Assembly: GCA_018694115.1 (NCBI GenBank)
Contig: JABHNB010000009.1
Span: forward strand, 11,116 to 75,115
Length of the DNA stretch: 64,000 bases
DNA from: an archaeon
Lineage (GTDB): Archaea; Nanobdellota; Nanobdellia; Pacearchaeales; GW2011-AR1
Direction: 5' to 3'
Below, in pieces: positions 1 to 12,281 of this stretch. The notes beneath the pieces were generated by a model that saw only the letters and a list, made by a program, of their open reading frames with translations, searched no databases and had not been told where the DNA came from. Positions within the stretch are counted from its first letter, which is position 1, and every line of letters starts with the position of its first letter. The position numbers and the translations under genes are program-made.

Positions 1-489
1 AGCTTGTCTTGGCCTGCGTAATTTCCATTGACAAAAATCTTTAAGGTTTCGCCCTTGCTTGAAAGAGAGTATTTTGTTTCACAATCATATCTTTGTGCCC
101 CCCTCGGTAGCCGAACTTCGTAATTGTATTCTGATAATAGCTTTCCTCTCTCTGGAATGTAGAGTATGCCTTCTTCTAGGACTGATGGCATTGGTGCAAT
201 AATTTCTATCCATGCGTTTCTTATTGAACCCTTGTTTGTTTTAATTCCGTTTGATGGTTTAGTTATATCTAAATCTAAGTTCCATGAATAAATGAAATCG
301 TGACTTGGGAAATAGCTTACTGACTTGAAGACGTCTGCAATTAATAGATCTTTTTCTAATGCTGTCATGTCGCTTTGTTGGATCGAGTTGCAGATTTCGA
401 AATCTCCGGCTGTTAATTGATTACAATTAAATGCAGTTGCCAAGGGTAATACCAAGGCAACTGCTAAAAATAACAATATTTTTTTCATG
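1..489 (-). CDS. Secreted protein, partial (C-terminus runs off the window start)
   Basis: Minus-strand ATG at 487-489 encodes MKKILLFLAVALVLPLATAF..., a signal-peptide-like N-terminus. The open frame continues to the window edge. It is not in the ORF track because it is partial. Confidence 0.4.
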
Positions 490-493
490 GGAA

Positions 494-895
494 CTATCCG
501 AGGATCAAGTTGACGACAAAAGGTGCTGCCCATATTACTATGAGACCGACGATAACATACATTACCATATTTTTCGCCTTTTCTCGCTTTCCAGGATCTG
601 AACCACTTGCTATGTATGTGACACCTGCAAATAACATCACAAGTCCAGCGATTATTGTTGCTGCATATTTGACAAGATTATAAATCGTTGTCAATGGAGC
701 TAAGATTTCTTCGAAATCCGCTTCACTGGCTGCAACAACTAAGCTGACTTGGGTTGCTACCAAAAGCAAAAAGATTGCAATTGGTAAGAGGTTCAGTCTT
801 CTTTGTTTAGTTCCTTGGTTTGGTTTTTGTGCCATTGTAAGATTTGCTTCAACTTCTTTTTGTTCGGATATTTTTGTTGTAGAAATTCTAGGCAA
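494..895 (-). CDS. Small membrane protein with two hydrophobic helices (VirB2/TrbC-pilin-like topology)
   Basis: The 133 aa ORF has two long hydrophobic segments separated by a short loop and a charged N-terminus. No homology could be verified. Confidence 0.35.
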   Translation of the reverse strand: MPRISTTKISEQKEVEANLTMAQKPNQGTKQRRLNLLPIAIFLLLVATQVSLVVAASEADFEEILAPLTTIYNLVKYAATIIAGLVMLFAGVTYIASGSDPGKREKAKNMVMYVIVGLIVIWAAPFVVNLILG

Positions 896-1161
896 GTTTG
901 GCAGATATCTTCTTCTTCAAGAAATTCTCCGCAGACATAACATTTTGTTTCCATAATTTGTCTAAATAAATTAATTATAAATGGAATCGGGGAGAAGTTT
1001 CACTTGTTTTTTCACTTGTTTTTTCTACTCGATTTTTTATAAGGTTTATTTGGATAGTTCTTTCATGGAAAATAAAATCTCAGAAGATATTGGTGGGGAA
1101 ATTATCTCTAGGTTGAAGGATCTTGTAAGAATGTTAGAGATTAAATATCGTGAGGAGCGAG

Positions 1162-1326
1162 ATGGGAAAGAATTCTCAGATACATATATATCTAGAAACT
1201 AAGTTGAGGAGGAAATTGGAGAGGGAGGCTGAGGCGAGATGTATTTCTGTTTCGGAGTTGTGTAGGCAGAAGTTGAGGGATGGTGATAAGTTGGATAGGA
1301 TTTTGGAGATTTTGGAGAAGGGATAG
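1162..1326 (+). CDS. Small ribbon-helix-helix (CopG/Arc-like) putative regulator 35 nt upstream of hsdR
   Basis: 54 aa ORF MGKNSQIHIYLETKLRRKLEREAEARCISVSELCRQKLRDGDKLDRILEILEKG. It has an alternating beta-strand followed by two helices, including an ISVSELCRQKL motif typical of RHH proteins. At under 60 aa it is absent from the ORF track. Confidence 0.4.
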   Translation: MGKNSQIHIYLETKLRRKLEREAEARCISVSELCRQKLRDGDKLDRILEILEKG

Positions 1327-1360
1327 ATACTTTTTTTAACCTATTTCTGTATGAAATTTA

Positions 1361-4105
1361 ATGAAAGGCTCGGAAAATATTACAGAAGCGAAAACTAGGA
1401 AAGATCTCATTGATCCAATTCTTTTTGATCGTGTTGGATGGAAAAAGGAATATGTGATTGAAGAACCAAATGCTGTTAAGTCTAACTTTAAGACGAAGGA
1501 ATTTAAGTATATTGGAGATGATACAGAAGAAGGAGAGAATCGATATATTGATTATTTGTTATTAGACGAGCAAAGAAATCCGGTTGCGATTATTGAAGCG
1601 AAGAAAACTTCTGTTGATATTGAGAAGGGAGAGATTCAGGGAAGAACCTATAGGGAAGACCTTGAGAAACAGATTGGTTTCAAAATTCCAATTTTTTTAA
1701 CGAATGGTAAATCTTGGTATTATGTGGATATTGATGATATAAGAAGAAAAGTATTGTTACCTTTTTCTCAAAAAGATTTACAGCGGATTGTAAGTTTGCA
1801 GAAAAAAAGAAAGGACCCGACAAGAGCTAAGCTTAATCCCAAAATTGTAAACCGAAAAAGAAGTATCGAAGCCGTGAAGCAGGTCTTAGAACATTTTGGT
1901 GAAGGAAAGAGGTCGGCTTTGATTAACATGGCTACAGGTACGGGTAAGACTCGTGTTGCAATGGCAGTTATTGACGGGTTAATCAAATCAAATCGCGTTC
2001 AAAATATATTATTCGTAGTTGATCGGACTGCATTATCGAATCAGGCAAAAGAGAAAGGTTTTAAGAAATATTTTCCCAATGATCCTGTTGTGGAGTTGAA
2101 TCAAGAAGGATTTTCTGATACTGCTAGAATTTATGTTTCGACAATTCAAACTTTAATGGCTGACAAGAAACCACGAGGTAAACTTTATGAAAGATTCGGA
2201 GCCGGTGCTTTTGATTTGATTATTTTTGATGAGGCGCATCGTTCGATTTATGATAAGAATAATTCGGTTATGAAATATTTTGATGCGCTTAAGATTGGGC
2301 TGACAGCTACACCATTAACTGAGGATATGAGAGATACGACTACATTTAGATTATTTGATTGTGATGAGGGAAAGCCTACTGTTAGGTATGATTATGACCA
2401 GGCGGTTAGGGATGGGGTTTTGGCTCCCTATGTTGCGGAGGTTATTGCGACTAAGGTTTTAACTGAAGGCATTGAAGGAAAAAAATTAAGTAAAGAATTA
2501 AAGTTTGCGTTAGAGAAACAAGAGGAGAGGCCAGAAGATTTTGAAACTCCGGGTTCTAAGTTTGAAAAGTTTTTTACTGATGAGAAGACGAACGAGTTGA
2601 TTGTTAGTGAATTTGTGGATAGGTGTTACAAGTCTGGAGGGAGGCCGTGTAAGACTATTTTCTTTTGTGCGAGCGTTAAGCATGCGGAATCTTTGGAGTT
2701 GATTTTTCAGAGATTATATCCTAAGTTTGCAAAGGATGTGAAAGTTATTGTTTCCAATCGTACTCGTTATATGGATGAGGTTAAAAATTTTGAGAAGAAG
2801 GATTTTCCCAGGGTTGCTTTATCTGTTGGAGTTTTAGATACGGGGATTGATATTCCTGAGATTATGAATTTGGTCTTTGTTAAGCCTGTAATGTCTAAAG
2901 TTAGATTCTGGCAAATGCTTGGTCGTGGAACTAGAAATCTGGAGGCATGTGAACATAGGGATTGGTTGCCTGATGGGAAAAAGAATGACTTTTATATTAT
3001 GGATTTTAAGTTTGGGGATTTTTCGAATATTCATTATCATGGTTTAGATCCGAAGATGAAGAAGTCTAGTGGGCAGGATGTTAAGGTGAAGATTTTCGAG
3101 GATAGATTAGACTTGCTGGAGAAAGATCTTGATGATAAAGAAAGGGGGATTGTTGAGAAGCAGATTAGGGAGACGATTAAAGACATCGATGTTGATTCTC
3201 CTTTGGTTCTTGATAAGAAGGAGATGATCAAAAAGGTTGTTTCTGTTAAGTTTGATTTGGCGAAACATATTGAGAAGTTGAAGGCTGAGATTTCACCATT
3301 GCTTATTTATTCGAAGAGTGAGAATCAGAGAGTTTATGCGTTTATCGGCCAGTGTGTTAAATTACTTGGCTACCTTAAGGAAGGAGATCTTGAGAAAGTT
3401 GAAAATATAAAGAAGAAGATTGTTGATAAGGTGAGGGTGATTTGGGATAAGAACCTTGAGGTAATTTTGGCGAAGAGGGATGACTTGATAAAAATACAGG
3501 CGGATGAGTATTGGGAAGATTTGACTTTTGATGACGTTGGATTTCTAATGAGAGAGATTGCGCCTTTGATGATTTATTACAAAGTGCCAAGAAAAGGGAT
3601 GCTGAAAGTCAATGCGCCCGATGTGGTTATTGATGTTGATAAAGTTAGAAAGGAAATTGGAAAGGATCCTGAATTTGAGGAATTTATTGAAAGTAGTCCC
3701 CTGATGTTGAAAATTAAGAACGGTGAGGGTGTTACTTCGAATGAACTTTTGGAGATTGAGATCGCGCTTCGGAAGAAGAATTCTAGGTTGACTATTGAGA
3801 ATATTCAGGAGAGGGAAGATTTTGTTTTGTTTTTGCGGGCGCTTATTGATGTGAAGGGTTTGCCTGATCCTAAGGAGATGATTAAGTGGGAGTTTGATAA
3901 GCATGTGATTGATCGGAATGAGCATTATAATGCTGAGCAGTTGAAGTTTTTGAGGAACCTTGAGGAGGTTTTTGTCCGGGCGAAGCATATTGAACTTAAG
4001 AGTTTTGCAGAGCATCCTTTGGCTGATGGGAGGCCTTTAGATATCTTTAGTAAGGAGCAGTTGGTTAGGGTTGTTGAAAAGTGTAATGGGTTGAAGTGGA
4101 AATAA
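1361..4105 (+). CDS. hsdR: Type I restriction enzyme R subunit (HsdR)
   Basis: N-terminal PD-(D/E)xK-like nuclease region (D...IEAKK). SF2 helicase Walker A MATGTGKTRVAM and DEAH box IIFDEAHRS. 914 aa, linked to hsdS and hsdM. Confidence 0.85.
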   Translation: MKGSENITEAKTRKDLIDPILFDRVGWKKEYVIEEPNAVKSNFKTKEFKYIGDDTEEGENRYIDYLLLDEQRNPVAIIEAKKTSVDIEKGEIQGRTYREDLEKQIGFKIPIFLTNGKSWYYVDIDDIRRKVLLPFSQKDLQRIVSLQKKRKDPTRAKLNPKIVNRKRSIEAVKQVLEHFGEGKRSALINMATGTGKTRVAMAVIDGLIKSNRVQNILFVVDRTALSNQAKEKGFKKYFPNDPVVELNQEGFSDTARIYVSTIQTLMADKKPRGKLYERFGAGAFDLIIFDEAHRSIYDKNNSVMKYFDALKIGLTATPLTEDMRDTTTFRLFDCDEGKPTVRYDYDQAVRDGVLAPYVAEVIATKVLTEGIEGKKLSKELKFALEKQEERPEDFETPGSKFEKFFTDEKTNELIVSEFVDRCYKSGGRPCKTIFFCASVKHAESLELIFQRLYPKFAKDVKVIVSNRTRYMDEVKNFEKKDFPRVALSVGVLDTGIDIPEIMNLVFVKPVMSKVRFWQMLGRGTRNLEACEHRDWLPDGKKNDFYIMDFKFGDFSNIHYHGLDPKMKKSSGQDVKVKIFEDRLDLLEKDLDDKERGIVEKQIRETIKDIDVDSPLVLDKKEMIKKVVSVKFDLAKHIEKLKAEISPLLIYSKSENQRVYAFIGQCVKLLGYLKEGDLEKVENIKKKIVDKVRVIWDKNLEVILAKRDDLIKIQADEYWEDLTFDDVGFLMREIAPLMIYYKVPRKGMLKVNAPDVVIDVDKVRKEIGKDPEFEEFIESSPLMLKIKNGEGVTSNELLEIEIALRKKNSRLTIENIQEREDFVLFLRALIDVKGLPDPKEMIKWEFDKHVIDRNEHYNAEQLKFLRNLEEVFVRAKHIELKSFAEHPLADGRPLDIFSKEQLVRVVEKCNGLKWK

Positions 4106-4197
4106 TCCCCGTATACACCTTTGTATGCAAAAAAAGGTTTACCTTTGGTAAGAGGAAATATGGAAAGCTTTAAAAAGAAAGTTTCTTACAATATTTT

Positions 4198-4461
4198 ATG
4201 GTAACTGATAAGCCCTCGAGAGAAGAAGATAATAAAGTTGTAATGTCTAAGATTTCTAGGGACGAATTTGCGAATTTGCAGAAGCTCTGCGAGATGGAAA
4301 AAAAAAGTGTTAATAAAAAGTTGAGAGAAATAATCCAGAAAGAAATAGCTGAAATTTTTTTTAGAGAGAAACCTCTAAGACTCAAGGGGGAAAGAAAGAA
4401 ATTTTTTATCCCATCTGAAAATAGGTTTATTGAAATGTTGGAGGTTGAGGATGATAACTAA
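4198..4461 (+). CDS. Small RHH-like protein, likely starting at the ATG at 4243, overlapping the start of the ATPase gene
   Basis: MSKISRDEFANLQKLCEMEKKSVNKKLREIIQKEI has a beta-strand plus two-helix pattern. Its stop overlaps the downstream gene start by about 30 nt. Confidence 0.3.
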   Translation: MVTDKPSREEDNKVVMSKISRDEFANLQKLCEMEKKSVNKKLREIIQKEIAEIFFREKPLRLKGERKKFFIPSENRFIEMLEVEDDN

Positions 4462-6598
4462 GATAAATCTTATTAGAAATTTGGGTAAGTTCGAAAATTG
4501 TACCCCTAATAATATTACGATCAACAACAATCTCTTAATTTATGGGAACAACACTCAGGGTAAAAGCACATTCACGTCTATATTAAAATCAATGAAGGAA
4601 AATAACCCTAATATTCTTTTAGGAAGGAGGTGTTTTTCTTCGGGAAGAAATCCTGAGATAAGAATTGAGGTAGATGGTAGCCCGATATCTTTTGAAAATA
4701 GACAGTGGACAAGTCATTTATCTAATATAGAAATATTTGATACAGATTTTATTGCGAAAAATATTTCAGATTTAGATAAAATAACGCAGCAGCAGCAAGT
4801 TAATATGAATTCTATAATTCTTGGAGAAGAGGGCAGAAGAATAGATAATGAAATAATCTCTTTAAGTTCACAAATAACCAATAACGGTACGCGTAAAAGC
4901 GGATTAACACATCAACTAATGGGACTTTGCAGTAAAAATTACAATGAACTGGTGGTGATAAATGAGATTCCAGAAGTGGATCATGAGATAGATAGGTTGA
5001 CGGGGAGCATAACCTTATTAGAAAAAGATGATAAAATCAAAACAATTATTGGAGGATTTAACAAATTTTCAGTTGATAACGCAGAGAAGGGTTTGTTAAC
5101 AAAAACAATCCAAGTAGATCTAGGAATTATAAGTTCACATAAGGAAAAATGCTGTACAGGCGGAATCTCTTGTGATAATTTTTTTAACCTGGGAACACAG
5201 TTGAGCACAAAGGGGTTCTGTGCTTTTTGCGGAAGTGAATTATCCGAAGAAGAAGAGCTTGTTGAAAATTATAAAAAATATTACTCTATGGAATATGAAA
5301 ACCTCATTAGCGAATTATCTGTATTGAAAAATAAAGTTAATATTTTTAATTTTGAGAAATGGCATGAGATTTGGAAATTTTTATCTGAAAATGGGATTGT
5401 AATATCTGAACCAGATATTAGAAAACTTGAAGAATTAAAAAGTAATATTATTCAAGAAATTAATGAAAAGTTAAGTAGCGTAAATGGCTCTAGGAATATT
5501 GATGCCTTTATTGGCGAAATTGCTCAAATTCAAGAAAAATTTGAAGAAGAGCTTGGGGCTATATCATCAGATACAACGCAACTGATGCGACTAAAGAGAG
5601 AGAGGTCTTTAAACCTAGAAAACAAAAAGATTTTTTCAGCCCAAGTGCAAGGAATTATTCAAAGTTATAAATCTATTGAGGAGGAAACAAGAGAATTCGA
5701 AAGAAGAAGGTCACAGCATCAACAAGAATTAACACAATATTCACAAGATATATTCGCGAAATATCAGGATGAAATAAATATAATTCTAGGTGAAATAAAT
5801 TCCGATTTCACATTGTCGATAGATTCGTCATATGCAACTGCTATTAGACGTGGCAACCAGGAGGTATTTAGTTTAGATTTTTCTGGAAACCAAGTATCAA
5901 TTAATTCAGAAGATCTTTCAAATCCATGTTTTGGAAATACTTTAAGCGAAAGTGACAAGAAATCCTTAGCATTTGCTTTTTTTGTTGCACAGCTACGCCA
6001 AGATACAGAATTACAGGAAAAGATAATAGTTCTAGATGATCCTATTTCTAGTTTTGACAAGGAAAGAAAAAATAAAACTGCAGAAATCCTTTTGACACTA
6101 AAGAATCAAGAAGAGGCATCTCCGAATCAGATAATAATATTGACACATGAACAATATTTTTTAATGGATATAAGGAGTAAGGCAAAAACGCTAGGGATAC
6201 AATTTCATGAATTAACCATAAAAAGAAATAGCATAAGTATATCTGATTTTTCTAAGGAATTTGAATCCCAGGTGTTAAAGGATTTAGAATGGCTGTCTGC
6301 TTTAAAAGACAATTATAATGGTGAGGATTTTTTTGTGCAAGCAAGAAAAATATTAGAGAATATTTTCAAAAGGAAATATTTTTCAAAAGTTAAAGCAATT
6401 TTAAGTGTAAATAACGTTGCGGGTGTCAGAACTTTTGTTCAAGAAATTTATGGAACTGGAACCGACGAATACATTAAAGGAATTAGTCTATGTAACGATC
6501 TAAATATAGAATCTCATGATAATCCCTCAAGGCAATTAACAAATGGGGACAAACAAACTATTTTAAATGACTTTTTTAATTTTTTGGAGATATTATAA
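4430..6598 (+). CDS. AAA_13-family ABC-type ATPase (PrrC/RloC anticodon-nuclease-like) embedded in the type I RM operon
   Basis: Walker A LLIYGNNTQGKSTF. Walker B/D-loop IIVLDDPISSFD followed by an H-loop-like ILTHEQ. Central coiled-coil region with a Cys cluster KCCTGGISCDNFF...FCAFCGSE. 722 aa. Position between hsdR and hsdS matches known prrC/rloC loci. Confidence 0.6.
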   Translation: MKCWRLRMITKINLIRNLGKFENCTPNNITINNNLLIYGNNTQGKSTFTSILKSMKENNPNILLGRRCFSSGRNPEIRIEVDGSPISFENRQWTSHLSNIEIFDTDFIAKNISDLDKITQQQQVNMNSIILGEEGRRIDNEIISLSSQITNNGTRKSGLTHQLMGLCSKNYNELVVINEIPEVDHEIDRLTGSITLLEKDDKIKTIIGGFNKFSVDNAEKGLLTKTIQVDLGIISSHKEKCCTGGISCDNFFNLGTQLSTKGFCAFCGSELSEEEELVENYKKYYSMEYENLISELSVLKNKVNIFNFEKWHEIWKFLSENGIVISEPDIRKLEELKSNIIQEINEKLSSVNGSRNIDAFIGEIAQIQEKFEEELGAISSDTTQLMRLKRERSLNLENKKIFSAQVQGIIQSYKSIEEETREFERRRSQHQQELTQYSQDIFAKYQDEINIILGEINSDFTLSIDSSYATAIRRGNQEVFSLDFSGNQVSINSEDLSNPCFGNTLSESDKKSLAFAFFVAQLRQDTELQEKIIVLDDPISSFDKERKNKTAEILLTLKNQEEASPNQIIILTHEQYFLMDIRSKAKTLGIQFHELTIKRNSISISDFSKEFESQVLKDLEWLSALKDNYNGEDFFVQARKILENIFKRKYFSKVKAILSVNNVAGVRTFVQEIYGTGTDEYIKGISLCNDLNIESHDNPSRQLTNGDKQTILNDFFNFLEIL

Positions 6599-7175
6599 CA
6601 TGAAACAAAAAAAAATTAAAACATTTGATGAGTTAAATTTTTTTCCCACTGGGAGCAATTGGAAGCACGTGCTTTTAGAAGTCTATAGACATTCGCCACA
6701 TAATTATGGGGAATCTCATAAGGTTGGATTTTATGATGATAAGCACCTTCTTGCAAAGAAGTTAAAGATCTCAGGATTTGAATTAGGGCTTGCAATTTCT
6801 TTTCTGAGAGATCATAAATTGATTAAAGATAATAATCCTGGGAAAGCTGGATTGAACTCGCCTCCGATTTGTCCAGAATGGAGTAATAGAATTCTTTTGA
6901 CAGATAGGGGTTTTGAGATTGCGACAAAGCTAGAAAATGAATTAAGTAATGAGAGAACGCAGAAAGTAGTAATGATATTTACTGCAATTATTGCATGGAC
7001 TGGATTTACGGCATTGCTGAATGAAATTATGCCAGATAAAATTTCTATTGTCTTTTGGATTTATGTTCCAGTGATAATACTTTTGTTATCTTCATTCTAT
7101 TTCAATACTTTAATTGACAAATTTAAAAGATTTATTTTCAAGAGACAGATTAATAGTGGTGGGTGCGCGATATGA
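6567..7175 (+). CDS. Hypothetical protein with C-terminal membrane anchor (two TM helices)
   Basis: Likely start at MKQKKIKTF (around 6600). Hydrophobic C-terminal helices IFTAIIAWTGFTALL and IVFWIYVPVIILLLSSFYF. Overlaps hsdS start. Confidence 0.4.
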   Translation: MTFLIFWRYYNMKQKKIKTFDELNFFPTGSNWKHVLLEVYRHSPHNYGESHKVGFYDDKHLLAKKLKISGFELGLAISFLRDHKLIKDNNPGKAGLNSPPICPEWSNRILLTDRGFEIATKLENELSNERTQKVVMIFTAIIAWTGFTALLNEIMPDKISIVFWIYVPVIILLLSSFYFNTLIDKFKRFIFKRQINSGGCAI

Positions 7176-8320
7176 AACAAAAACAGATTAACCAAAATTG
7201 GAAAGAGTTTGAATTGGGAGAAATAATTGAGTGTTTGGATAATCAAAGAATCCCCATCACGGGATCAGATAGAAAAAAGGGAGAAATTCCTTATTATGGT
7301 GCAAATGGGCAGCAAGATTCTGTTGCAGATTCTATTTTTAATGAGGAACTTTTGTTATTGGCTGAAGATGGTGGAAGTTGGGGATATAAGCAAAAATGCT
7401 CTTATATTATTAATGGAAAATCTTGGGTGAACAATCATGCCCATGTTTTACGAATGAAAAAAGACATGATAAATATTAATCTTCTTAGGTATTGGTTTAA
7501 TTTAACTGATTTGAATAAATATATTTCTGGAACAACAAGGGGAAAATTAAATCAAGGGGTAATGAAAAAAATAAAAATTCCTCTTCCAGTTCTCTCGGAT
7601 GGAACTTCTGATTTAGAGAAGCAAAAGCAGATTGTTGCGATGTTGGAAAAGGCGGAGGGGTTGAAGGATAAGCGGAAGGGGTTGGATGAGTTGTTTGATG
7701 AATATTTGAAGAGTGTTTTTTATGAGATGTTTGGGGATCCATTCAATAATCCTAAGGGATTTAATACTAAAAGACTAGTTAAGGATGTTGTCCTAATAAA
7801 CGGCAGGGCATTCAAAACGTCTGAGTGGAGCAATGAAGGTATTAAGATTATACGGATCCAAAATCTGAATAAGCCTTCAGCAGGGTATAATCGGTACAAT
7901 GGAGAGGTTGATGAGAAGAATATAGTTGAAAAAGGAGATATGCTTTTGTCTTGGTCCGGAACACCAGGAACTTCTTTTGGAGTGTTTATTTGGGAGAAAG
8001 AGAAGGCTGCACTCAACCAGCATATTTTCAAGGTTGAATTGCCTTCAGATCTTGAGAAGACATTCTTTCAATATTTTATTAATTCAAAATTACTTGAGCT
8101 TATTTCTAAGTCTCATGGTGGAGTTGGCCTACAACATATAACAAAGTCTGAGTTAAATAATGTGGATGTTTATTATCCTCCAATTACTCTTCAGGAAAAA
8201 TTTGCTTCTATTGTTGAGCAGGTTGAGAAAATTAAAGATAAATTAAAAGATGAGAAGAAGGATGCTGATGAGTTGTTTAATGCTTTGATGCAGAAGGCTT
8301 TTTCGGGGGAGTTGGCATGA
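7163..8320 (+). CDS. hsdS: Type I restriction-modification specificity subunit (HsdS)
   Basis: Two target-recognition-domain halves, each followed by a conserved helical spacer (LEKQKQIVAMLEKAEGLKDKRKGLDELFDEYL and LQEKFASIVEQVEKIKDKLKDEKKDADELFNALMQKAFSGEL). Confidence 0.8.
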   Translation: MRDMKQKQINQNWKEFELGEIIECLDNQRIPITGSDRKKGEIPYYGANGQQDSVADSIFNEELLLLAEDGGSWGYKQKCSYIINGKSWVNNHAHVLRMKKDMININLLRYWFNLTDLNKYISGTTRGKLNQGVMKKIKIPLPVLSDGTSDLEKQKQIVAMLEKAEGLKDKRKGLDELFDEYLKSVFYEMFGDPFNNPKGFNTKRLVKDVVLINGRAFKTSEWSNEGIKIIRIQNLNKPSAGYNRYNGEVDEKNIVEKGDMLLSWSGTPGTSFGVFIWEKEKAALNQHIFKVELPSDLEKTFFQYFINSKLLELISKSHGGVGLQHITKSELNNVDVYYPPITLQEKFASIVEQVEKIKDKLKDEKKDADELFNALMQKAFSGELA

Positions 8321-8721
8321 ACAAGAAAGGGTATACACAATTTATTGTTATTGGATTTATAGTTCTTGCAATCTGGGGGATTGTCTCCTCATTGGGATGG
8401 GTAGGTTCAAATAATAAACTTGATACAGAGCAGGAAAAAACTGATTATTGGAAAGGATTGAATTCCCAGTGCCAGCAAGAATTGGGCATAGCCTGTGAAC
8501 AAATTGAGGATCAGACAAAAACTATATCAGATCTTCAAGGAAAAATTGGAATTCTTGAAAATCAGAACAATTCAGATAAGTATGCTGTTTTATGGATAGG
8601 TCCTGAAATAATAATCAACGAAACATGGGCTATTATAATTAATATTGGATTAAGCATTTCTCTAATATCAGTATCCTTTACTTTAAAATTTGTTTTTGGA
8701 GGAGACAAAAAAAGAAAATGA
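8317..8721 (+). CDS. Membrane protein with N- and C-terminal TM helices and a central coiled coil
   Basis: MNKKG start. TM segments at both ends. Overlaps the hsdS stop and the next gene start (ATGA overlaps). Confidence 0.45.
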   Translation: MNKKGYTQFIVIGFIVLAIWGIVSSLGWVGSNNKLDTEQEKTDYWKGLNSQCQQELGIACEQIEDQTKTISDLQGKIGILENQNNSDKYAVLWIGPEIIINETWAIIINIGLSISLISVSFTLKFVFGGDKKRK

Positions 8722-9332
8722 ATAAAAAAGGTGAAGCTAGTCCTGAGGAAATAATTAAAGCAATTTTTGCAATTATAATAATACTTCCTTTATTCGGAGC
8801 ATTATTCGGAGCGCTAAATGATATCTCTCATCAAAGTGAAAATACCGAGATACAAAAAATAACTAATGAGAAAAACTTAGAGATTGAGAATATTACGAAT
8901 GAGAAAGAGGCGATCACGTCAGAGAGAGATGATTATAAAAGTAGATATGAACAAATTCAAGGAGACTACGATTACCTAATTAATACTAGTGTTACGAAAA
9001 ATGACGTCAATGAAATACACGGAGAAATGAATTCTATTAAAAATTCCTTGGATAGTCTGCATAATAAAACATCAGTGGTTAATCAAAATATAAATCATTT
9101 TTATGACATAAGGCAGACATACATATATTACACAATAAGCGTTGTAATCAACTTTGCAATTCCCATAGTTTTTGTTTTGGATTGGACTTTATTCAACTTT
9201 TCGATTACAGTAAAAATTACTAAAAAAATGAATGGATTTCTTGGAAAATTAAAAACTAAACTAAAGAAAATATTTTTCAAGGAAAAAACTCCTGAAGAGC
9301 AAACAAATAAAAGAGAGGGTGAACAGGAGTAA
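8718..9332 (+). CDS. Membrane protein, paralogue of the preceding gene (N- and C-terminal TM helices, coiled coil)
   Basis: Same MNKKG start and same architecture as 8317..8721. Ends 2 nt before the hsdM start. Confidence 0.45.
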   Translation: MNKKGEASPEEIIKAIFAIIIILPLFGALFGALNDISHQSENTEIQKITNEKNLEIENITNEKEAITSERDDYKSRYEQIQGDYDYLINTSVTKNDVNEIHGEMNSIKNSLDSLHNKTSVVNQNINHFYDIRQTYIYYTISVVINFAIPIVFVLDWTLFNFSITVKITKKMNGFLGKLKTKLKKIFFKEKTPEEQTNKREGEQE

Positions 9333-9334
9333 CT

Positions 9335-10789
9335 ATGGTAGGACTTGAACAAGAATTAAAATCGAAAGTGAGGGGGCTTTGGGATAAGTTTTGGAGTGGT
9401 GGAATTTCTAATCCGCTTCAGGCGATTGAGCAGATTTCTTATTTAATGTATATGAAAAAGCTTGAGGATAAAGATGTTTTGGAAGAACAGAATGCTATTC
9501 TAAAGGGTGAGAAATTTAAGTCTATTTTCGAAAAACATAAAGATTGTCGATGGAGTGAGTGGTCGCAGTATTCTTCGGATAAAATTTTAGATCATGTTCG
9601 AGATGTTGTATTTAAGTTTATGAGGGAATTAGGAGATGAAGATACACTTTACTCAGAATACATGAAGGATGCTACTTTTTCTTTGCCTACTGCTTCGCTA
9701 TTGATTGAGTCTGTGAATATAATTAATGATATGCACATCAAGGAGCAGAATCAAGATACACAAGGAGATATTTATGAGTATTTGCTTTCGGAGTTATCTA
9801 CGGCTGGGAAGAATGGGCAGTTTAGGACGCCGAGACATATTATTCAGATGATGACTGAGCTTGCTAATCCGGAGTTTGGCGATAGAATTATGGATCCAGC
9901 TTGTGGGACTGCGGGGTTTTTGGTTAGTGCGTATGAGCATATTTTGAAAGTAAACAAGAAAGGTGGGGTTAGTACGTTTACACCAAGTAAGAAAAAGATT
10001 TTGGATGAAGATACTTTTTATGGATATGATATTGATAGAACGATGGTTCGAATTGCATTGATGAATTTGATGATGCATGGGATAACTAATCCAAAAATTT
10101 CTCGGACAGATACTTTGTCCAAGAGATATAATGAGAACGGGACTTATGATATAATCTTAGCGAATCCTCCATTCAAGGGGTCGATTGATGTTAGTGAGCA
10201 AAGTGACGAGTTTACTGTTAAGACTAAGAAGACTGAATTGTTGTTTTTGGAATTAATGCATAACTCTTTGTCTAATGGTGGAAGGTGTGCTGTGATTATT
10301 CCTGATGGCGTTTTGTTTGGTAATTCTAATGCACATCAAGGAATTAGAAAGATGTTACTAGAAGACTGTCGACTTGATGCGGTTATCTCTATGCCCTCAG
10401 GAATCTTTAAACCATATGCTGGTGTTTCTACTGCAGTTTTATATTTTACAAAGGGTGAGCCAACAAAGGAAGTTTGGTTTTATGATATGCAGGCTGATGG
10501 ATATAGTTTGGATGATAAAAGGAATAAGATTGAGGCGAATGATATTCCGGATATTTTGGAGAGTTTTAAGAATCGAAAGAAAGAAGATAATACTGACAGG
10601 AAGGCTAAGCATTTTATTGTTCCGGTGGAAGAGATTAAGGAGAATAATTTTGATTTGAGTTTGTCTAAGTACAAGGAGCATGTATACGCGGAAGAAGTTT
10701 ATCGGGAGCCTGGAGTTATTTTAGAAGAGATTGGGAAGACTCATGTTGAATTGAGTAAGGATATTGAAGATTTGAAGAAGTTGGTTTGA
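9335..10789 (+). CDS. hsdM: Type I restriction-modification N6-adenine DNA methyltransferase (HsdM)
   Basis: N6-MTase motif IV ILANPPF. SAM-binding motif I DPACGTAGFL. N-terminal HsdM_N-like region. 484 aa. Confidence 0.9.
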   Translation: MVGLEQELKSKVRGLWDKFWSGGISNPLQAIEQISYLMYMKKLEDKDVLEEQNAILKGEKFKSIFEKHKDCRWSEWSQYSSDKILDHVRDVVFKFMRELGDEDTLYSEYMKDATFSLPTASLLIESVNIINDMHIKEQNQDTQGDIYEYLLSELSTAGKNGQFRTPRHIIQMMTELANPEFGDRIMDPACGTAGFLVSAYEHILKVNKKGGVSTFTPSKKKILDEDTFYGYDIDRTMVRIALMNLMMHGITNPKISRTDTLSKRYNENGTYDIILANPPFKGSIDVSEQSDEFTVKTKKTELLFLELMHNSLSNGGRCAVIIPDGVLFGNSNAHQGIRKMLLEDCRLDAVISMPSGIFKPYAGVSTAVLYFTKGEPTKEVWFYDMQADGYSLDDKRNKIEANDIPDILESFKNRKKEDNTDRKAKHFIVPVEEIKENNFDLSLSKYKEHVYAEEVYREPGVILEEIGKTHVELSKDIEDLKKLV

Positions 10790-11944
10790 TTAATTTAAAC
10801 TGACAACCAGCTCCCCCTTCTTAACAAACTCCAGAATCTCTTTCATTTGACCTTCTAACATTCCAACTCTCTCAAGCAAAACTTCTTTCTCATTCTCAGA
10901 TTTTAGTAGCCTCTGTTCAATCTCAGTCTTCGTCACATCAACCAACATATCTTCTTCGCTAATGGTGTCCACCATCCCGAGGAATTCTGAATAGTAATGA
11001 ATTTTGTCTGATTCCTTCCATCCGAATCTATACTTCAATGAACTTTCTGATTTATACCTTGGAAGCCAATAGCAACATGAACAGTGCCTGAAGTGGTACA
11101 TTGTTAGCTCGGAATATTTCTTTCCAGCTAGACTCATTTTGTCCCCTAGGACTTTCTTAGCGAGCCTCTGGAGATACTTATTGACAGATGTGGGCTTGAT
11201 ATCAAATACTCTGTCGTCTGGTCCGATACCCATTATCTTAATGTATTCTTTTATCATGCTAGAACAAAACATTAATTTTATTCGTCTTCCAAAAGTCTTA
11301 CTTATCTCATCTCTAACTTCGACTTCCTTGAAATCTTTATGAAAATCCGAGGTCTTAATGTTGATTAGTTCGCTTGGACTTCTGACCCCTGAGTCGTAGA
11401 GAAACATTATGATCATTCGATAATTATATTTTGCATTATCACAAAGCTGCTTGATTTGCTCTTCGGTTAGATAAACCCACTTCGGTTTTTCTCTGGAAGT
11501 ATCAAGATCTTCGGCTATATCTATTATCTTCGAGCCTTTTTTCTTTTCAACTTTAATGTGCCAGTGCCAAAAAGATTTGAACACTTTGACATAATCTGCA
11601 ACGGATTTATATATTCCTCCTTGTTTTTTTTGAATCTTGCCATTTCGCATATCATTGAAAAAAACAAAGATTTGTTCTTCTGATATGACTCTTATATCCT
11701 TGATATTAAATCTTTCTTCAAATTCTTTGACGATAAAAACCATTCTTTGTCGAATGTTATTTAGTCTGGCATAGCTTCTGGCTCCTTTGATGCTACTTTT
11801 AGAGATATTGAGTCCTCTTTCCATGTCTAATATGTATTTTAGGATTATGTCAGAGCTAGCCTTGCTAATATCCGGGATTCTTCCCTTTATTTTTTCTATC
11901 CAGTTGAAATATCTTTGTTTGTTTTTTTGTGGATCTACTTTCAT
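10790..11944 (-). CDS. Tyrosine recombinase / integrase (phage-integrase family)
   Basis: C-terminal box II YHFRHCSCCYWL (HxxRH) and a downstream Tyr-containing IHYYSE. N-terminal SAM-like domain. Sits 84 bp from the 3' end of tRNA-Glu. Confidence 0.65.
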   Translation of the reverse strand: MKVDPQKNKQRYFNWIEKIKGRIPDISKASSDIILKYILDMERGLNISKSSIKGARSYARLNNIRQRMVFIVKEFEERFNIKDIRVISEEQIFVFFNDMRNGKIQKKQGGIYKSVADYVKVFKSFWHWHIKVEKKKGSKIIDIAEDLDTSREKPKWVYLTEEQIKQLCDNAKYNYRMIIMFLYDSGVRSPSELINIKTSDFHKDFKEVEVRDEISKTFGRRIKLMFCSSMIKEYIKIMGIGPDDRVFDIKPTSVNKYLQRLAKKVLGDKMSLAGKKYSELTMYHFRHCSCCYWLPRYKSESSLKYRFGWKESDKIHYYSEFLGMVDTISEEDMLVDVTKTEIEQRLLKSENEKEVLLERVGMLEGQMKEILEFVKKGELVVSLN

Positions 11945-12028
11945 GATTTATCAAGGCTGACCATCTTAAAAGACGGTTTGTATAGTTCTTGTAAAATCGC
12001 ACCCCAGAAATTAGACAGAATATGCGGA

Positions 12029-12101
12029 CGCTCCCGCCGGGATTTGAACCCGGGTCACTGCCGTGAAAGGGCAGCATCCTTGGCCACTAGACTACGAGAG
12101 C
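12029..12101 (-). tRNA. tRNA-Glu (anticodon UUC)
   Basis: Manual fold of GCUCUCG-UA-GUCU...CUGCC-CUUUCAC-GGCAG-UGAC-CCGGG-UUCAAAU-CCCGG-CGGGAGC-G. Acceptor stem 7 bp, T-loop UUCAAAU, anticodon loop CUUUCAC. Confidence 0.8.
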
Positions 12102-12281
12102 ACTACTCGCGTGGTCTTCATGAAACGGTAAACCGTTACTTTAGACTACGAGAGCATGTCTTTATTCACCAATTTTCACTTTTAAAGCTTACGCATCATC
12201 AAATAATCTCCCGGCCGTCGTTACTGATACCTCCCTAAAATGAATCAAAACACATAAAAAGCAACAAATCCCTTAAATCCT

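What the first reader, a model, noticed from the sequence alone, without database searches (positions are those of the whole stretch)
1162..10789. Type I RM operon fused with a PrrC/RloC-like ATPase, a wHTH-TM protein and two paralogous membrane coiled-coil proteins
hsdR, a small RHH-like ORF, a 722-aa AAA_13 ATPase, a 202-aa TM-anchored protein, hsdS, two MNKKG membrane paralogues and hsdM follow each other with overlapping or abutting stop/start codons from 4198 to 10789. That arrangement implies a single transcript. Established knowledge: prrC and rloC anticodon nucleases are embedded in type I hsd loci and are silenced by EcoprrI-type complexes. Inference: this is a composite defence island with a second-line abortive-infection-type module plus membrane components. 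A type I RM operon carrying three extra membrane-associated genes between the S and M subunits is not a described arrangement.
Basis: partly seen in the sequence, partly recalled or inferred. Interest (0 to 1): 0.8.

Follow-up and report, generated by a model that had tools for sequence, protein, structure and literature searches.

The report
Archaeal restriction operon with cargo slots
An intact type I restriction-modification operon, sitting on an integrated conjugative element of a DPANN archaeon, carries swappable extra genes at two fixed positions: here an RloC-type tRNA-cutting back-up nuclease and three small membrane proteins of unknown role. Embedding defence genes this way is already known, but the archaeal two-slot pattern and the membrane proteins have not been described.

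Summary
The gene arrangement is real. On the + strand the order is RHH58, hsdR, RHH87, a 715-aa AAA_13 ATPase, a 191-aa wHTH+2TM protein, hsdS, two small TM-helix-TM proteins and hsdM. From 4198 to 10789 the stop and start codons overlap or abut.

The ATPase meets every sequence criterion published for RloC: ABC motifs, a CxxC in a long insert, and Arg-X3-Glu-X52-Ser-His. It is RloC-type, not PrrC-type.

The extra genes are not a fixed machine. About 170 related loci, mostly from DPANN archaea, keep the order R-[slot 1]-S-[slot 2]-M. Loci whose hsdM is 86-93% identical at the protein level carry unrelated inserts such as a KAP NTPase, a Schlafen/AlbA ATPase or a TPR protein. An RHH gene after hsdR is the only recurrent insert.

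The membrane ORFs are conserved families found at the same positions in other loci. Relatives of p204 lie directly upstream of hsdM or just after hsdS.

The two 'MNKKG' proteins share only an N-terminal module of about 65 residues, and only through intermediate sequences.

The whole island is cargo between a T4SS pilin gene and an integrase next to tRNA-Glu.

Embedding in type I RM is already described: C. jejuni rlo/mlo genes, PrrC, TgvAB, DarTG2. This is a new variant of a known kind. What the membrane proteins do is still unknown.

The parts
1162..1326 (+). Small RHH-like ORF (RHH58) upstream of hsdR. ATG at 1162; a GTG start at 1150 is also possible.
   Evidence: ORF. The beta-strand plus two-helix pattern is read from the sequence. 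There is no Pfam, NCBIfam or PADLOC hit. tblastn finds relatives at 40-57% identity in other elements, including next to the MTase of the Pacearchaeota element L001. The RHH assignment is an inference.
1361..4105 (+). hsdR, type I restriction subunit (914 aa), EcoAI/EcoEI-like (type IB-like).
   Evidence: ResIII 2e-37, HSDR_N, Helicase_C, EcoEI_R_C. PADLOC REase_I 7.6e-95. NCBIfam restrict_EcoAI 2.5e-69, below the equivalog cut-off. D64...E79-x-K81 nuclease motif, GTGKT193 and DEAH290 are present.
4198..4461 (+). p87: RHH-like small protein. It belongs to the one recurrent family found between hsdR and hsdS (it follows hsdR directly here); probable regulator of the downstream genes.
   Evidence: The first ~50 residues are conserved in the hsdR-hsdS interval of 34 metagenome loci, and by tblastn in 49 loci overall. 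A family profile gives weak but consistent RHH matches: NikR 2bj1 E=0.0067, AvtR, SIRV1 ORF56B, DinJ. Pfam: DUF6290 in 5 members (best 2.7e-5), RHH_1 and RHH_7. A TTTAAAAA box lies about 27 nt upstream of the ATG in the 92-nt gap, read as an archaeal TATA box by inference.
4451..6598 (+). RloC-type ABC ATPase / anticodon nuclease candidate (715 aa from ATG 4451; the ORF opens at TTG 4430).
   Evidence: AAA_13 6.2e-23. PDC-S06 4.9e-49. Residues invariant across 8 homologues: Walker A G37-K38-T40, C257-x-x-C260, L498-S499-x-x-D502, D529-D530, H566, R632-x3-E636-x52-(S688)H689. One homologue is named 'wobble nucleotide-excising tRNase' by JGI.
6600..7175 (+). p191: winged-helix domain followed by two C-terminal TM helices (the ORF opens at 6567 as 202 aa).
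   Evidence: TM segments at 134-152 and 159-177. Family of 16 proteins at 49-99% identity, no Pfam domain, invariant P-H-x-Y-G-E-S-H motif. AF2 model (pLDDT 63.5) shows H-H-H plus a beta hairpin, then two long helices. Top 30 Foldseek PDB hits are MarR- or GntR-family winged-helix regulators, best E=5.5e-3. Relatives lie between hsdR and hsdS in L042, L099 and L174, and outside any RM locus in L171.
7172..8320 (+). hsdS, specificity subunit (a GTG start at 7163 is possible).
   Evidence: Methylase_S 3.7e-39 with two stretches. Specificity_I 8.8e-55. Only the 5' end, the central region and the C-terminal region are conserved at the DNA level with L006, L010 and L011.
8317..8721 (+). p134: small membrane protein with an N-terminal MNKKG motif plus TM, a polar middle part and a C-terminal TM.
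   Evidence: TM segments near residues 9-27 and 105-123. Relatives of 139 aa (L087, 32% identity) and in L113 lie between hsdS and hsdM. No Pfam, PADLOC or NCBIfam hit.
8718..9332 (+). p204: membrane-anchored antiparallel helical hairpin with a basic C-terminal tail.
   Evidence: TM segments at 15-33 and 136-154. 22 representatives among 1.84 billion proteins, aligned over the full length. AF2 model (pLDDT 76.6): helix 9-87, turn 88-93, helix 94-159, helix 162-186. No PDB fold match. Relatives lie between hsdS and hsdM, directly upstream of hsdM in five loci (L176, L012, L107, L055, L020) or directly after hsdS (L182, L026, L069).
9335..10789 (+). hsdM, modification subunit (484 aa).
   Evidence: N6_Mtase 4.8e-69, HsdM_N 1.6e-11. 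MTase_I 1.9e-177. DPACGTAGF187 and NPPF277 are present.
10790..11944 (-). Tyrosine recombinase (integrase) of the element that carries the island.
   Evidence: Phage_integrase 2.1e-8. XerA-like 5.5e-13. Relatives at 55-62% identity lie beside hsdM in L006, L010, L023, L024, L028 and L033, and beside the RloC-like gene in L001.
12026..12102 (-). tRNA-Glu(UUC), the probable integration target next to the integrase.
   Evidence: ARAGORN. No second att copy was found in 1-13000.
494..895 (-). TrbC/VirB2-type T4SS pilin gene. It marks the conjugation module to the left of the island.
   Evidence: T4SS_pilin 2.9e-14, TrbC 1.2e-9. The related Pacearchaeota element L001 has TrbC, TrbL and TraC next to its integrase and RloC-like gene.

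Best explanation
This is an intact type I (EcoAI/EcoEI-like) restriction-modification operon of an archaeal hsd clade. In this clade two intergenic positions act as cargo slots: slot 1 between hsdR and hsdS, and slot 2 between hsdS and hsdM. The operon is itself cargo at the integrase end of an ICE-like element inserted beside tRNA-Glu in a DPANN (Pace-/Woesearchaeota-like) archaeon.

Shown here:
- The RM genes carry their catalytic motifs.
- Slot 1 holds the clade's recurrent RHH gene, an RloC-type ABC ATPase with a complete anticodon-nuclease triad, and a winged-helix protein with two TM helices.
- Slot 2 holds two small hairpin membrane proteins.
- Closely related hsd scaffolds carry unrelated cargo.

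Inferred:
- The RM enzyme is the first line against incoming DNA.
- The RloC-type protein is a self-contained second line. As with bacterial RloC, it would be switched on by ATP plus DNA ends (restriction products or virus-induced genome breakage) through its zinc-hook ATPase. It would then cut tRNA anticodon loops to stop translation.
- The RHH protein sets expression of the genes from 4198 onward, from a promoter in the 92-nt gap after hsdR.
- The three membrane proteins are separately acquired cargo modules that act at the cell envelope. For p134 and p204 the middle part is most likely exposed outside the cell and they may work as exclusion-type proteins. They are not subunits of the RM enzyme or of RloC.
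For: - RM identity and motifs.
- RloC criteria (from PMC2610378) are all matched in the sequence: ABC motifs, C257xxC260 midway in the ~460-residue insert between Walker A and the signature motif, R632-x3-E636-x52-S-H689, 715 aa.
- Cargo-slot behaviour: the order R-x-S-y-M holds in ~170 loci.
- In the metagenome loci with both genes, slot 2 exceeds 150 bp in 58 of 61 and slot 1 exceeds 400 bp in 32 of 33.
- In DPANN-labelled genomes the counts are 39/43 for slot 2 and 36/36 for slot 1. In methanogens slot 2 is occupied in 8/18.
- The 281 slot ORFs of the metagenome loci fall into 121 families.
- Loci with 86-93% identical HsdM carry a KAP NTPase, a Schlafen/AlbA ATPase, a TPR protein or other TM proteins instead.
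- DNA identity to L011, L006 and L010 is confined to hsdR, the conserved parts of hsdS, and hsdM.
- Cargo GC3 is 0.25-0.29 against 0.33-0.37 for the hsd genes.
- Recurrent cargo includes defence-linked domains: DUF3800/PDC-M04A, NYN, HEPN, SLFN_AlbA_2.
- Independence of the modules: the RloC-like gene occurs without type I RM in L001-L005. p191 occurs with other partners, and in L171 outside any RM locus.
- ICE context.
- The membrane ORFs are real: full-length family alignments with a conserved architecture and recurrence at the same position in other loci.
- An outward-facing middle part for p204: a strongly basic C-terminal tail after TM2, and an N-x-S/T sequon at or near the hairpin tip in most family members. 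This is a positive-inside and glycosylation-sequon inference.
Against: - There are no expression, methylation, tRNA-cleavage or infection data; everything about activity is inferred.
- The RloC assignment rests on motifs and on HMM or name transfer. The closest named relative is only 27% identical, no solved RloC or PrrC structure was available for comparison, and the nuclease fold was not modelled.
- p204-family genes lie next to hsdM or hsdS far more often than an unrelated passenger would. All 10 HMM hits in the fetched loci fall in slot 2, and 2 of 5 independently sampled distant members are hsd-adjacent. This leaves room for a real functional tie to the RM enzyme.
- Slot sizes were estimated from tblastn ends and naive ORF calls, so the counts are approximate.
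- The loci were chosen through hsdM, which biases the association statistics.
Confidence: 0.7

Rival explanations
1. One integrated machine. RM, the RloC-like ATPase, the wHTH-TM protein and the two membrane proteins would work as a single multi-component system. The RM complex would silence the nuclease, as EcoprrI silences PrrC, and the membrane proteins would act as its effectors or sensors.
For: Stop and start codons overlap or abut from 4198 to 10789, which suggests co-translation. PrrC is almost exclusively embedded in type I RM and is regulated by it.
Against: The protein has the RloC architecture, not the PrrC one. RloC is activated independently of RM. No other of the ~170 related loci has this combination, and the RloC-like gene was found in none of them. 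Each extra gene occurs elsewhere with other partners. Near-identical scaffolds carry unrelated cargo.
Confidence: 0.1
2. The small membrane proteins, above all the p204 family, are true accessory parts of this archaeal RM clade. They might tether or regulate the methyltransferase/restriction complex at the membrane where foreign DNA enters.
For: p204-family genes sit directly upstream of hsdM with overlapping or abutting codons in five other loci (L176, L012, L107, L055, L020), and directly after hsdS in L182. A membrane protein is the gene immediately upstream of hsdM in 45 of 137 non-redundant loci. The cytoplasmic basic helix 162-186 could contact DNA or protein.
Against: Many loci of the clade have no TM protein in slot 2, and 19 have hsdS abutting hsdM. 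The TM proteins belong to many unrelated families. Methanogen relatives are often compact. Most of p204 is predicted to lie outside the cytoplasm. The sampling is biased towards hsdM neighbours.
Confidence: 0.12
3. The membrane proteins belong to the conjugative element rather than to defence. They could be entry- or surface-exclusion proteins, or cell-contact proteins, that happen to lie in the RM operon.
For: The island lies between a T4SS pilin gene and the integrase. They are small surface-exposed membrane proteins. N-termini of the M-x-KKG plus hydrophobic type recur in slot 2 and resemble archaeal prepilin-like signals.
Against: They are positioned inside the hsd operon in many loci, whether or not an integrase is nearby; an integrase was seen in 13 loci. 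Slot cargo elsewhere is enriched in defence-type domains. No homology to known exclusion proteins was found.
Confidence: 0.15
4. The small embedded ORFs are spurious, and the spacing between the hsd genes is non-coding.
For: p134 and p204 have no hit in Pfam, NCBIfam or PADLOC, and a word-based search found nothing for p204 except itself.
Against: A full HMMER scan finds 22 full-length p204 relatives of similar size and architecture. p134 has relatives at the same position in L087 and L113. p191 has 16 relatives with 29 invariant residues. The start/stop overlaps are of the ATGA type. All are annotated as proteins in three NCBI assemblies.
Confidence: 0.02

Closest known systems
RloC (Geobacillus kaustophilus, Acinetobacter baylyi; Davidov & Kaufmann 2008, Klaiman et al. 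2012 and 2014)
   Same: An ABC ATPase head split by a long insert with a central CxxC, and a C-terminal Arg-X3-Glu-X36-52-(Ser)His triad. Its size is within the 658-897 aa range. It is occasionally embedded in type I RM loci (8 of 73), and it was named after such inserts.
   Different: The host is archaeal (1 of 45 archaeal genomes in the 2008 survey). Identity to a protein named as a wobble nucleotide-excising tRNase is only 27%. It is carried on an ICE-like element. Activity, substrates and the zinc response are untested.
Campylobacter jejuni type I hsd loci with rlo/mlo genes (Miller et al. 2005, as cited)
   Same: The same gene order, hsdR - insert - hsdS - insert - hsdM, with inserts that vary between strains and include rloC-type genes.
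   Different: The C. jejuni loci are bacterial. The known S-M insert, mloB, is annotated as a transcriptional regulator rather than a membrane protein. No conserved RHH gene after hsdR is described there. I could not read the original paper, so the comparison rests on secondary citations.
PrrC-EcoprrI of E. coli
   Same: An anticodon nuclease with an ABC ATPase domain and the Arg/Glu/His triad, encoded inside a type I RM locus as a guard for restriction.
   Different: PrrC lacks the coiled-coil/zinc-hook insert, has a PrrC box, and is held inactive by the RM complex until a phage anti-restriction peptide releases it. The window protein has the RloC architecture.
Defence genes embedded in type I RM: TgvAB in V. 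cholerae VPI-2, DarTG2 with the repressor RptR in EPEC, and 'guilt-by-embedding' with PADLOC PDC families (Payne et al. 2024)
   Same: Independent defence modules are nested between hsd genes. A small regulator gene accompanies the operon. The ATPase matches the PADLOC candidate family PDC-S06.
   Different: Those cases are bacterial and mostly lie between hsdS and hsdR. Here there are two slots, the regulator is an RHH protein placed after hsdR, and much of the slot 2 cargo is small membrane proteins with no known counterpart. The published survey used RefSeq genomes.

Membership tests
Type I restriction-modification system | HsdR with an N-terminal PD-(D/E)xK nuclease, an SF2 motor and a C-terminal assembly domain | tested here: met
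   HSDR_N, ResIII 2e-37, Helicase_C, EcoEI_R_C. REase_I 7.6e-95. D64...E79-x-K81, GTGKT193, DEAH290.
Type I restriction-modification system | HsdM N6-adenine methyltransferase with AdoMet and NPPF motifs, and HsdS with two target-recognition domains | tested here: met
   N6_Mtase 4.8e-69 and HsdM_N. DPACGTAGF187 and NPPF277. Methylase_S 3.7e-39 with two stretches.
Type I restriction-modification system | Sequence-specific methylation and ATP-dependent restriction | not testable with these tools
   Needs methylome data or biochemistry.
RloC (wobble nucleotide-excising anticodon nuclease) | ABC ATPase motifs: Walker A, signature, Walker B/D-loop, switch histidine | tested here: met
   G37-K38-S39-T40, L498-S499-E-S-D502, D529-D530-P-x-S-S-F-D and H566 (G37, K38, T40, L498, S499, D502, D529, D530 and H566 are invariant in 8 homologues).
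RloC (wobble nucleotide-excising anticodon nuclease) | Long insert in the ATPase head with a central CX2C zinc hook flanked by coiled coil | tested here: met
   C257-A-F-C260 is invariant and lies about midway between K38 and S499. The coiled-coil character of the flanks was not run through a predictor and no structure model was made.
RloC (wobble nucleotide-excising anticodon nuclease) | C-terminal Arg-X3-Glu-X36-52-His, with Ser often before His (definition in PMC2610378) | tested here: met
   R632-x3-E636-x52-S688-H689. R, E and H are invariant in all 8 aligned homologues.
RloC (wobble nucleotide-excising anticodon nuclease) | Size 658-897 aa | tested here: met
   715 aa from ATG 4451.
RloC (wobble nucleotide-excising anticodon nuclease) | tRNA anticodon-loop cleavage, activated by ATP plus linear DNA and modulated by zinc | not testable with these tools
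   Biochemical property.
PrrC | About 400 aa, ABC domain without a coiled-coil/zinc-hook insert, PrrC box | tested here: not met
   715 aa with a ~460-residue insert that contains CxxC. Definition. The PrrC box was not searched for.
PADLOC candidate family PDC-S06 | Match to the PDC-S06 profile HMMs | tested here: met
   PDLC04895 4.9e-49, plus nine further PDC-S06 models. This is a candidate family without a tested function.
Winged helix-turn-helix (MarR-like) DNA-binding domain, for p191 | Three-helix bundle plus beta-hairpin wing | tested here: inconclusive
   The AF2 model has H19-30, H50-54, H59-71 and strands 75-77/97-100, but mean pLDDT is 63.5. The top 30 Foldseek PDB hits are MarR- or GntR-family winged-helix regulators, with E only 5e-3 to 4e-2 and TM 0.3-0.6. 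No Pfam hit.
Ribbon-helix-helix (CopG/MetJ/Arc) regulators, for p87 | N-terminal beta strand followed by two helices; profile similarity to RHH families | tested here: inconclusive
   A profile of 18 members hits NikR (0.0067), AvtR, ORF56B and DinJ weakly. Pfam gives DUF6290 in 5 members, RHH_1 and RHH_7, all below the curated cut-offs.
Archaeal class III (prepilin-like) signal peptide proteins, for p134 and p204 | Short charged leader ending in [KR][GA], followed at once by a hydrophobic stretch (FlaFind-type pattern, recalled from memory) | tested here: inconclusive
   p134 begins MNKKG-YTQFIVIGFIVLAIWG. In p204 the hydrophobic stretch starts 10 residues after the G. By eye, the strict pattern as I recall it is not met. 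No dedicated predictor was available.

The most novel reading that the evidence does not exclude
In DPANN archaea this hsd clade works as a standing two-slot cassette platform. The small envelope proteins that recur immediately upstream of hsdM (the p204-type helical hairpins, the p134 type and others with M-x-KKG leaders) would be a previously unrecognised class of membrane partners of type I RM. They might couple restriction or modification to the site of DNA entry or cell contact, or form a new envelope-level exclusion layer co-expressed with RM.
Probability: 0.2. Interest if true: 0.7.

Novelty: new variant of a known kind. Interest (0 to 1): 0.5.

Why it matters
DPANN archaea are reported to have few recognisable defence systems, possibly because their systems are unknown to current catalogues (PMC12259885). 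Published embedding surveys used RefSeq genomes.

The two slots in this hsd clade give a concrete, easily searched place to harvest candidate archaeal defence or envelope genes. In the 80 metagenome loci alone the slots held 121 ORF families, and most of the recurrent families tested had no Pfam match.

The locus also offers a natural case of an RloC-type nuclease inside an archaeal RM operon on a conjugative element. That would allow a direct test of whether RloC guards restriction in cis.

If the hsdM-adjacent membrane hairpins prove to interact with the RM enzyme, that would add a new component to a very well-studied enzyme class.

Tried and rejected
- A search for a second att copy of the tRNA-Glu 3' end in 1-13000 found only short chance repeats. 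The left end of the element lies outside the window.
- The sigma-70 promoter/terminator scan does not apply to an archaeon and was not used. The TATA-like box was read by eye.
- phmmer of the ATPase against PDB sequences gave nothing meaningful, best E=0.09.
- NCBIfam gave only generic ABC hits for the ATPase.
- tblastn against plasmids returned only 'AAA family ATPase' genes at 20-24% identity, which did not help with naming.
- Foldseek of the p204 model against the PDB gave no match at all.
- The word-based homologue search for p204 found only itself. The full HMMER scan was needed.
- Direct paralogy of p134 and p204 was rejected by BLASTP and by hhalign against the p204 profile. jackhmmer chaining was treated with caution and replaced by profile-profile tests with reversed controls.
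- I checked whether the shared MNKKG start is a recombination scar next to hsdS. The motif also occurs in later slot 2 genes, so that idea was dropped.
- The 136-aa gene before the p204 relative in L176 was checked as a possible p134 relative. It belongs to the RHH family instead.
- No structure model of the ATPase C-terminal domain was made because both prediction jobs went to p191 and p204.

Full report
**1. Observation**

The + strand between 1150 and 10789 carries nine consecutive ORFs:
- RHH58: 1162-1326 (a GTG start at 1150 is also possible).
- hsdR: 1361-4105.
- p87: 4198-4461.
- A large ATPase: the ORF opens at TTG 4430 and has an ATG at 4451; it ends at 6598.
- p191/202: 6567 or 6600 to 7175.
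- hsdS: 7163 or 7172 to 8320.
- p134: 8317-8721.
- p204: 8718-9332.
- hsdM: 9335-10789.

The gaps are 34 nt (RHH58 to hsdR) and 92 nt (hsdR to p87). After that the genes overlap by 4-11 nt or sit 1-2 nt apart (sequence). GC skew stays positive across the block and flips at the convergent integrase gene.

Pfam and PADLOC confirm the three hsd genes and the AAA_13 ATPase. The RM genes keep their catalytic motifs:
- HsdR: D64...E79-x-K81, GTGKT193, DEAH290.
- HsdM: DPACGTAGF187, NPPF277.

A hydropathy scan finds two TM segments each in p191, p134 and p204, and none elsewhere. The observation therefore stands.

Three starts need revision:
- The ATPase is 715 aa from ATG 4451, because all homologues begin there.
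- p191 starts at ATG 6600, as annotated in NCBI assemblies and as it aligns.
- hsdS probably starts at ATG 7172, where DNA conservation with related loci begins.

**2. The ATPase is RloC-type**

Only eight relatives were found by the word-based search. The nearest is from a Pacearchaeota MAG (44% identity). One relative, at 27% identity, is named 'wobble nucleotide-excising tRNase' by JGI.

The alignment of these eight proteins (coordinates) has these invariant features:
- Walker A: G37-K38-S39-T40 (G37, K38 and T40 invariant).
- C257-x-x-C260, about midway through the ~460-residue insert.
- Signature motif L498-S499-x-x-D502.
- Walker B D529-D530.
- Switch histidine H566.
- In the C-terminal domain, R632-x3-E636-x52-S688-H689.

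Davidov and Kaufmann define RloC by exactly these features: ABC motifs, a coiled-coil/zinc-hook insert with CX2C, a C-proximal Arg-X3-Glu-X36-52-His with Ser often before His, and a size of 658-897 aa. They showed that each triad residue is needed for anticodon-nuclease activity (PMC2610378). PrrC lacks the insert, so the protein is RloC-type, not PrrC-type.

PADLOC places it in candidate family PDC-S06 at 4.9e-49. No solved structure was available for comparison, and I did not model the nuclease domain. Membership therefore rests on sequence criteria only.

**3. The RM operon is a cargo platform, not a fused machine**

HsdM proteins in the same 90%-identity cluster, from other assemblies, sit in the same R...S...M frame but with different inserts:
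- L006 has five ORFs, including a KAP NTPase, between R and S. It has five more, including a SLFN_AlbA_2/HATPase_c_4/wHTH protein, between S and M.
- L010 has a TPR protein in slot 1 and two small ORFs in slot 2.

Scans with HsdM returned 80 metagenome loci and 80 genome loci at 59-93% identity. The genome loci are mostly Pace-, Woese- and Nanoarchaeota MAGs, with some methanogens.

The order hsdR - slot 1 - hsdS - slot 2 - hsdM holds throughout. Occupancy by group:

| Group | Slot 2 over 150 bp | Slot 1 over 400 bp |
|---|---|---|
| DPANN-labelled genomes | 39 of 43 (median 1.16 kb) | 36 of 36 (median 2.4 kb) |
| Methanogens | 8 of 18 (median gap -3) | 11 of 15 |
| Metagenome loci | 58 of 61 | 32 of 33 |

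The 281 slot ORFs of the metagenome set fall into 121 families.

At the DNA level, identity between the window and L011, L006 or L010 is confined to hsdR, the conserved parts of hsdS, and hsdM. Against L011 the conserved block begins about 50 nt before the hsdM start. Cargo genes have GC3 of 0.25-0.29, against 0.33-0.37 for the hsd genes.

Recurrent cargo families include defence-linked domains:
- SLFN_AlbA_2.
- DUF3800/PDC-M04A.
- NYN.
- HEPN.
- KAP NTPase.

Seven of the ten recurrent families tested have no Pfam match at all.

The RloC-like gene was found in none of the other hsd loci. Its relatives sit elsewhere next to solitary DNA methyltransferases, an integrase or a resolvase.

**4. The conserved RHH gene**

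The first ~50 residues of p87 recur between hsdR and hsdS in 34 metagenome loci (directly after hsdR in about half of them), and in 49 loci overall. The protein is usually 57-62 aa, and sometimes fused to a further domain of 124-138 aa.

Profile searches give weak but one-directional evidence for a ribbon-helix-helix fold. The hits are NikR at E=0.0067, AvtR, SIRV1 ORF56B and DinJ in the PDB, and DUF6290, RHH_1 and RHH_7 in Pfam.

A TTTAAAAA box lies about 27 nt before its ATG in the 92-nt gap. I read this, by inference, as an archaeal promoter for a leaderless transcript that runs from p87 to hsdM. On that reading hsdR is transcribed with RHH58 upstream.

The parallel with the small repressor RptR, the first gene of the EPEC RM-DarTG2 island, is functional only.

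**5. p191**

The family has 16 members at 49-99% identity and no Pfam domain. It has 29 invariant residues, including P-H-x-Y-G-E-S-H.

The AF2 model (pLDDT 63.5) shows three helices and a beta hairpin, followed by two long helices that contain the TM segments. The best 30 Foldseek PDB hits are MarR- or GntR-family winged-helix regulators, at modest scores (best E=5.5e-3). 'wHTH-TM' is therefore plausible but not proven.

Relatives lie in slot 1 just before hsdS in L042, L099 and L174. There they have partners other than RloC. In L171 a relative lies in a non-RM mobile region with an integrase, HEPN and Fic genes.

**6. p134 and p204**

*p204.* The word-based search found nothing beyond itself. 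The full HMMER scan of 1.84 billion representatives found 22 proteins of 154-213 aa, most of them aligned over nearly their full length. The common plan is:
- an N-terminal TM;
- a long helix;
- a conserved tip, Y...L...N-I-T-K-x-D, which is an N-x-S/T sequon in most members;
- a return helix;
- a second TM;
- a basic tail.

AF2 (pLDDT 76.6) gives a helical hairpin: helices 9-87 and 94-159, then helix 162-186. Nothing in the PDB resembles it.

Family members lie in slot 2. They are directly upstream of hsdM in L176, where the order is R - RHH - p204-like - M, and in L012, L020, L055 and L107, and elsewhere in slot 2 in L026, L049, L069, L098 and L145. One lies directly after hsdS in L182. Two others lie next to nuclease-like genes.

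*p134.* It has relatives of 139 aa in L087 (32% identity) and in L113, both in slot 2.

*Are they paralogues?* Directly, p134 and p204 are not alignable. Profile comparisons link p134's family to the L012 group (94.8%) and that group to the p204 family (96.9%). Both links cover only residues 1-65, and reversed-sequence controls score below 4%. The two proteins therefore share an N-terminal module at most.

*The N-terminal motif.* M-x-KKG followed by a hydrophobic stretch recurs in several unrelated slot 2 TM families. A loose pattern matches 21 of 120 slot 2 ORFs against 2 of 139 slot 1 ORFs. It resembles archaeal prepilin-type signals, but I could not test that properly.

*How common this is.* Across non-redundant loci, the gene immediately upstream of hsdM is a membrane protein in 45 of 137 cases and hsdS in only 19.

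**7. Wider context**

A TrbC/VirB2 T4SS pilin gene lies at 494-895 on the minus strand. A tyrosine recombinase at 10790-11944 abuts hsdM tail to tail, and tRNA-Glu(UUC) follows at 12026-12102. Ordinary housekeeping genes follow to the right.

A related Pacearchaeota element (L001) has this order: integrase (61% identity), RloC-like gene, MTase, RHH, TrbC, TrbL, TraC. The RM island is therefore cargo at the integrase end of an ICE-like element. The element's left end lies outside the window.

**8. Mechanism**

*Shown:* an intact RM gene set, a complete RloC motif set, variable cargo in two slots, and conserved membrane-protein families at those slots.

*Inferred, step by step:*
- RM restricts unmethylated incoming DNA.
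- The RloC-type protein acts as in bacteria, where ATP plus linear DNA or double-strand breaks switch on wobble-nucleotide excision, even in RM mutants. It would stop translation when DNA ends accumulate. Silencing by the RM complex, as for PrrC, is not required.
- The RHH protein tunes expression.
- p134 and p204 most likely expose their helical part outside the cell. This follows from the basic tail lying inside and the sequon at the tip. They would act at the envelope, with an exclusion-type role as my leading guess.
- p191 may bind DNA at the membrane.

The rival that the membrane hairpins are real RM accessories cannot be excluded, because they sit next to hsdM so often.

**9. Comparison and novelty**

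Embedding in type I RM is established:
- PrrC.
- C. jejuni rlo and mlo genes in the same R-x-S-y-M order.
- TgvAB.
- DarTG2 with RptR.
- The systematic 'guilt-by-embedding' survey.

Four things appear new:
- An archaeal, mainly DPANN, clade in which both slots are nearly always filled.
- A conserved RHH gene after hsdR.
- The frequency of small membrane proteins just before hsdM, including the p204, p134 and p191 families, which match no catalogue.
- An RloC-type gene inside such an operon on a conjugative element.

I rate this a new variant of a known kind, with moderate interest. The main open question is what the hsdM-adjacent membrane proteins do.

Noticed in passing
window 494-895 (-), 10790-11944 (-), 12026-12102 (-): A T4SS pilin gene (TrbC/VirB2) lies to the left. 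A tyrosine recombinase plus tRNA-Glu(UUC) lies to the right. The RM island is therefore the integrase-proximal cargo of an ICE-like element in a DPANN archaeon. The left attachment site is outside the window.
   Followed up: partly
L001 8799-18091 (Pacearchaeota contig): A related element carries an integrase (61% identical), an RloC-like gene (44%), an N6_N4 methyltransferase, a small RHH gene, TrbC, TrbL and a TraC-like ATPase. It has no type I RM. The RloC-type gene therefore travels as ICE cargo in its own right.
   Followed up: partly
window 8317-8331 and 8718-8732; slot 2 genes of L006, L012, L020, L079, L082, L087, L113, L151: Unrelated small TM proteins between hsdS and hsdM often begin M-x(0-2)-K-K-G followed by a hydrophobic stretch. 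A loose pattern matches 21 of 120 slot 2 ORFs against 2 of 139 slot 1 ORFs. This looks like an archaeal prepilin-type (class III) signal, but the strict pattern as I recall it is not met.
   Followed up: partly
window 6696-6746 (p191 residues 33-49): The p191 family has the motif P33-H34-x-Y36-G37-E38-S39-H40, invariant apart from one member that lacks H40, and an invariant H49. In the model this region is poorly predicted. It may be a metal-binding or ligand-binding site.
   Followed up: no
window 6600-6619 and 7172-7191: A 20-nt direct repeat (90% identical) covers the start codons of p191 and hsdS: ATGAAACAAAAAAAAATTAA and ATGAAACAAAAACAGATTAA. It could be a trace of cassette insertion at the hsdS start, or just two Lys-rich N-termini.
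   Followed up: no
L042 7572-9263; L174 5957-7636: In loci that carry a p191 relative followed by a 266-267-aa protein, HsdS is 559-563 aa, with an N-terminal extension of about 180 residues of unknown function.
   Followed up: no
window 8985-9002 (p204 residues 90-95); alignment A3: The tip of the p204-family helical hairpin carries the most conserved motif of the family, N-I-T-K-x-D. It contains an N-glycosylation sequon in most members. In p204 itself the sequon is shifted to N89-T-S.
   Followed up: partly
window 12026-12102 (-): [quoted passage not shown] This is probably a coincidence.
   Followed up: no
window 981-1202 (+): A 73-aa ORF with no family hit overlaps the start of RHH58. It is preceded by a TTAATTATAAAT box at about 968-980. 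It may be a real small gene or the leader of the RHH58-hsdR transcript.
   Followed up: no
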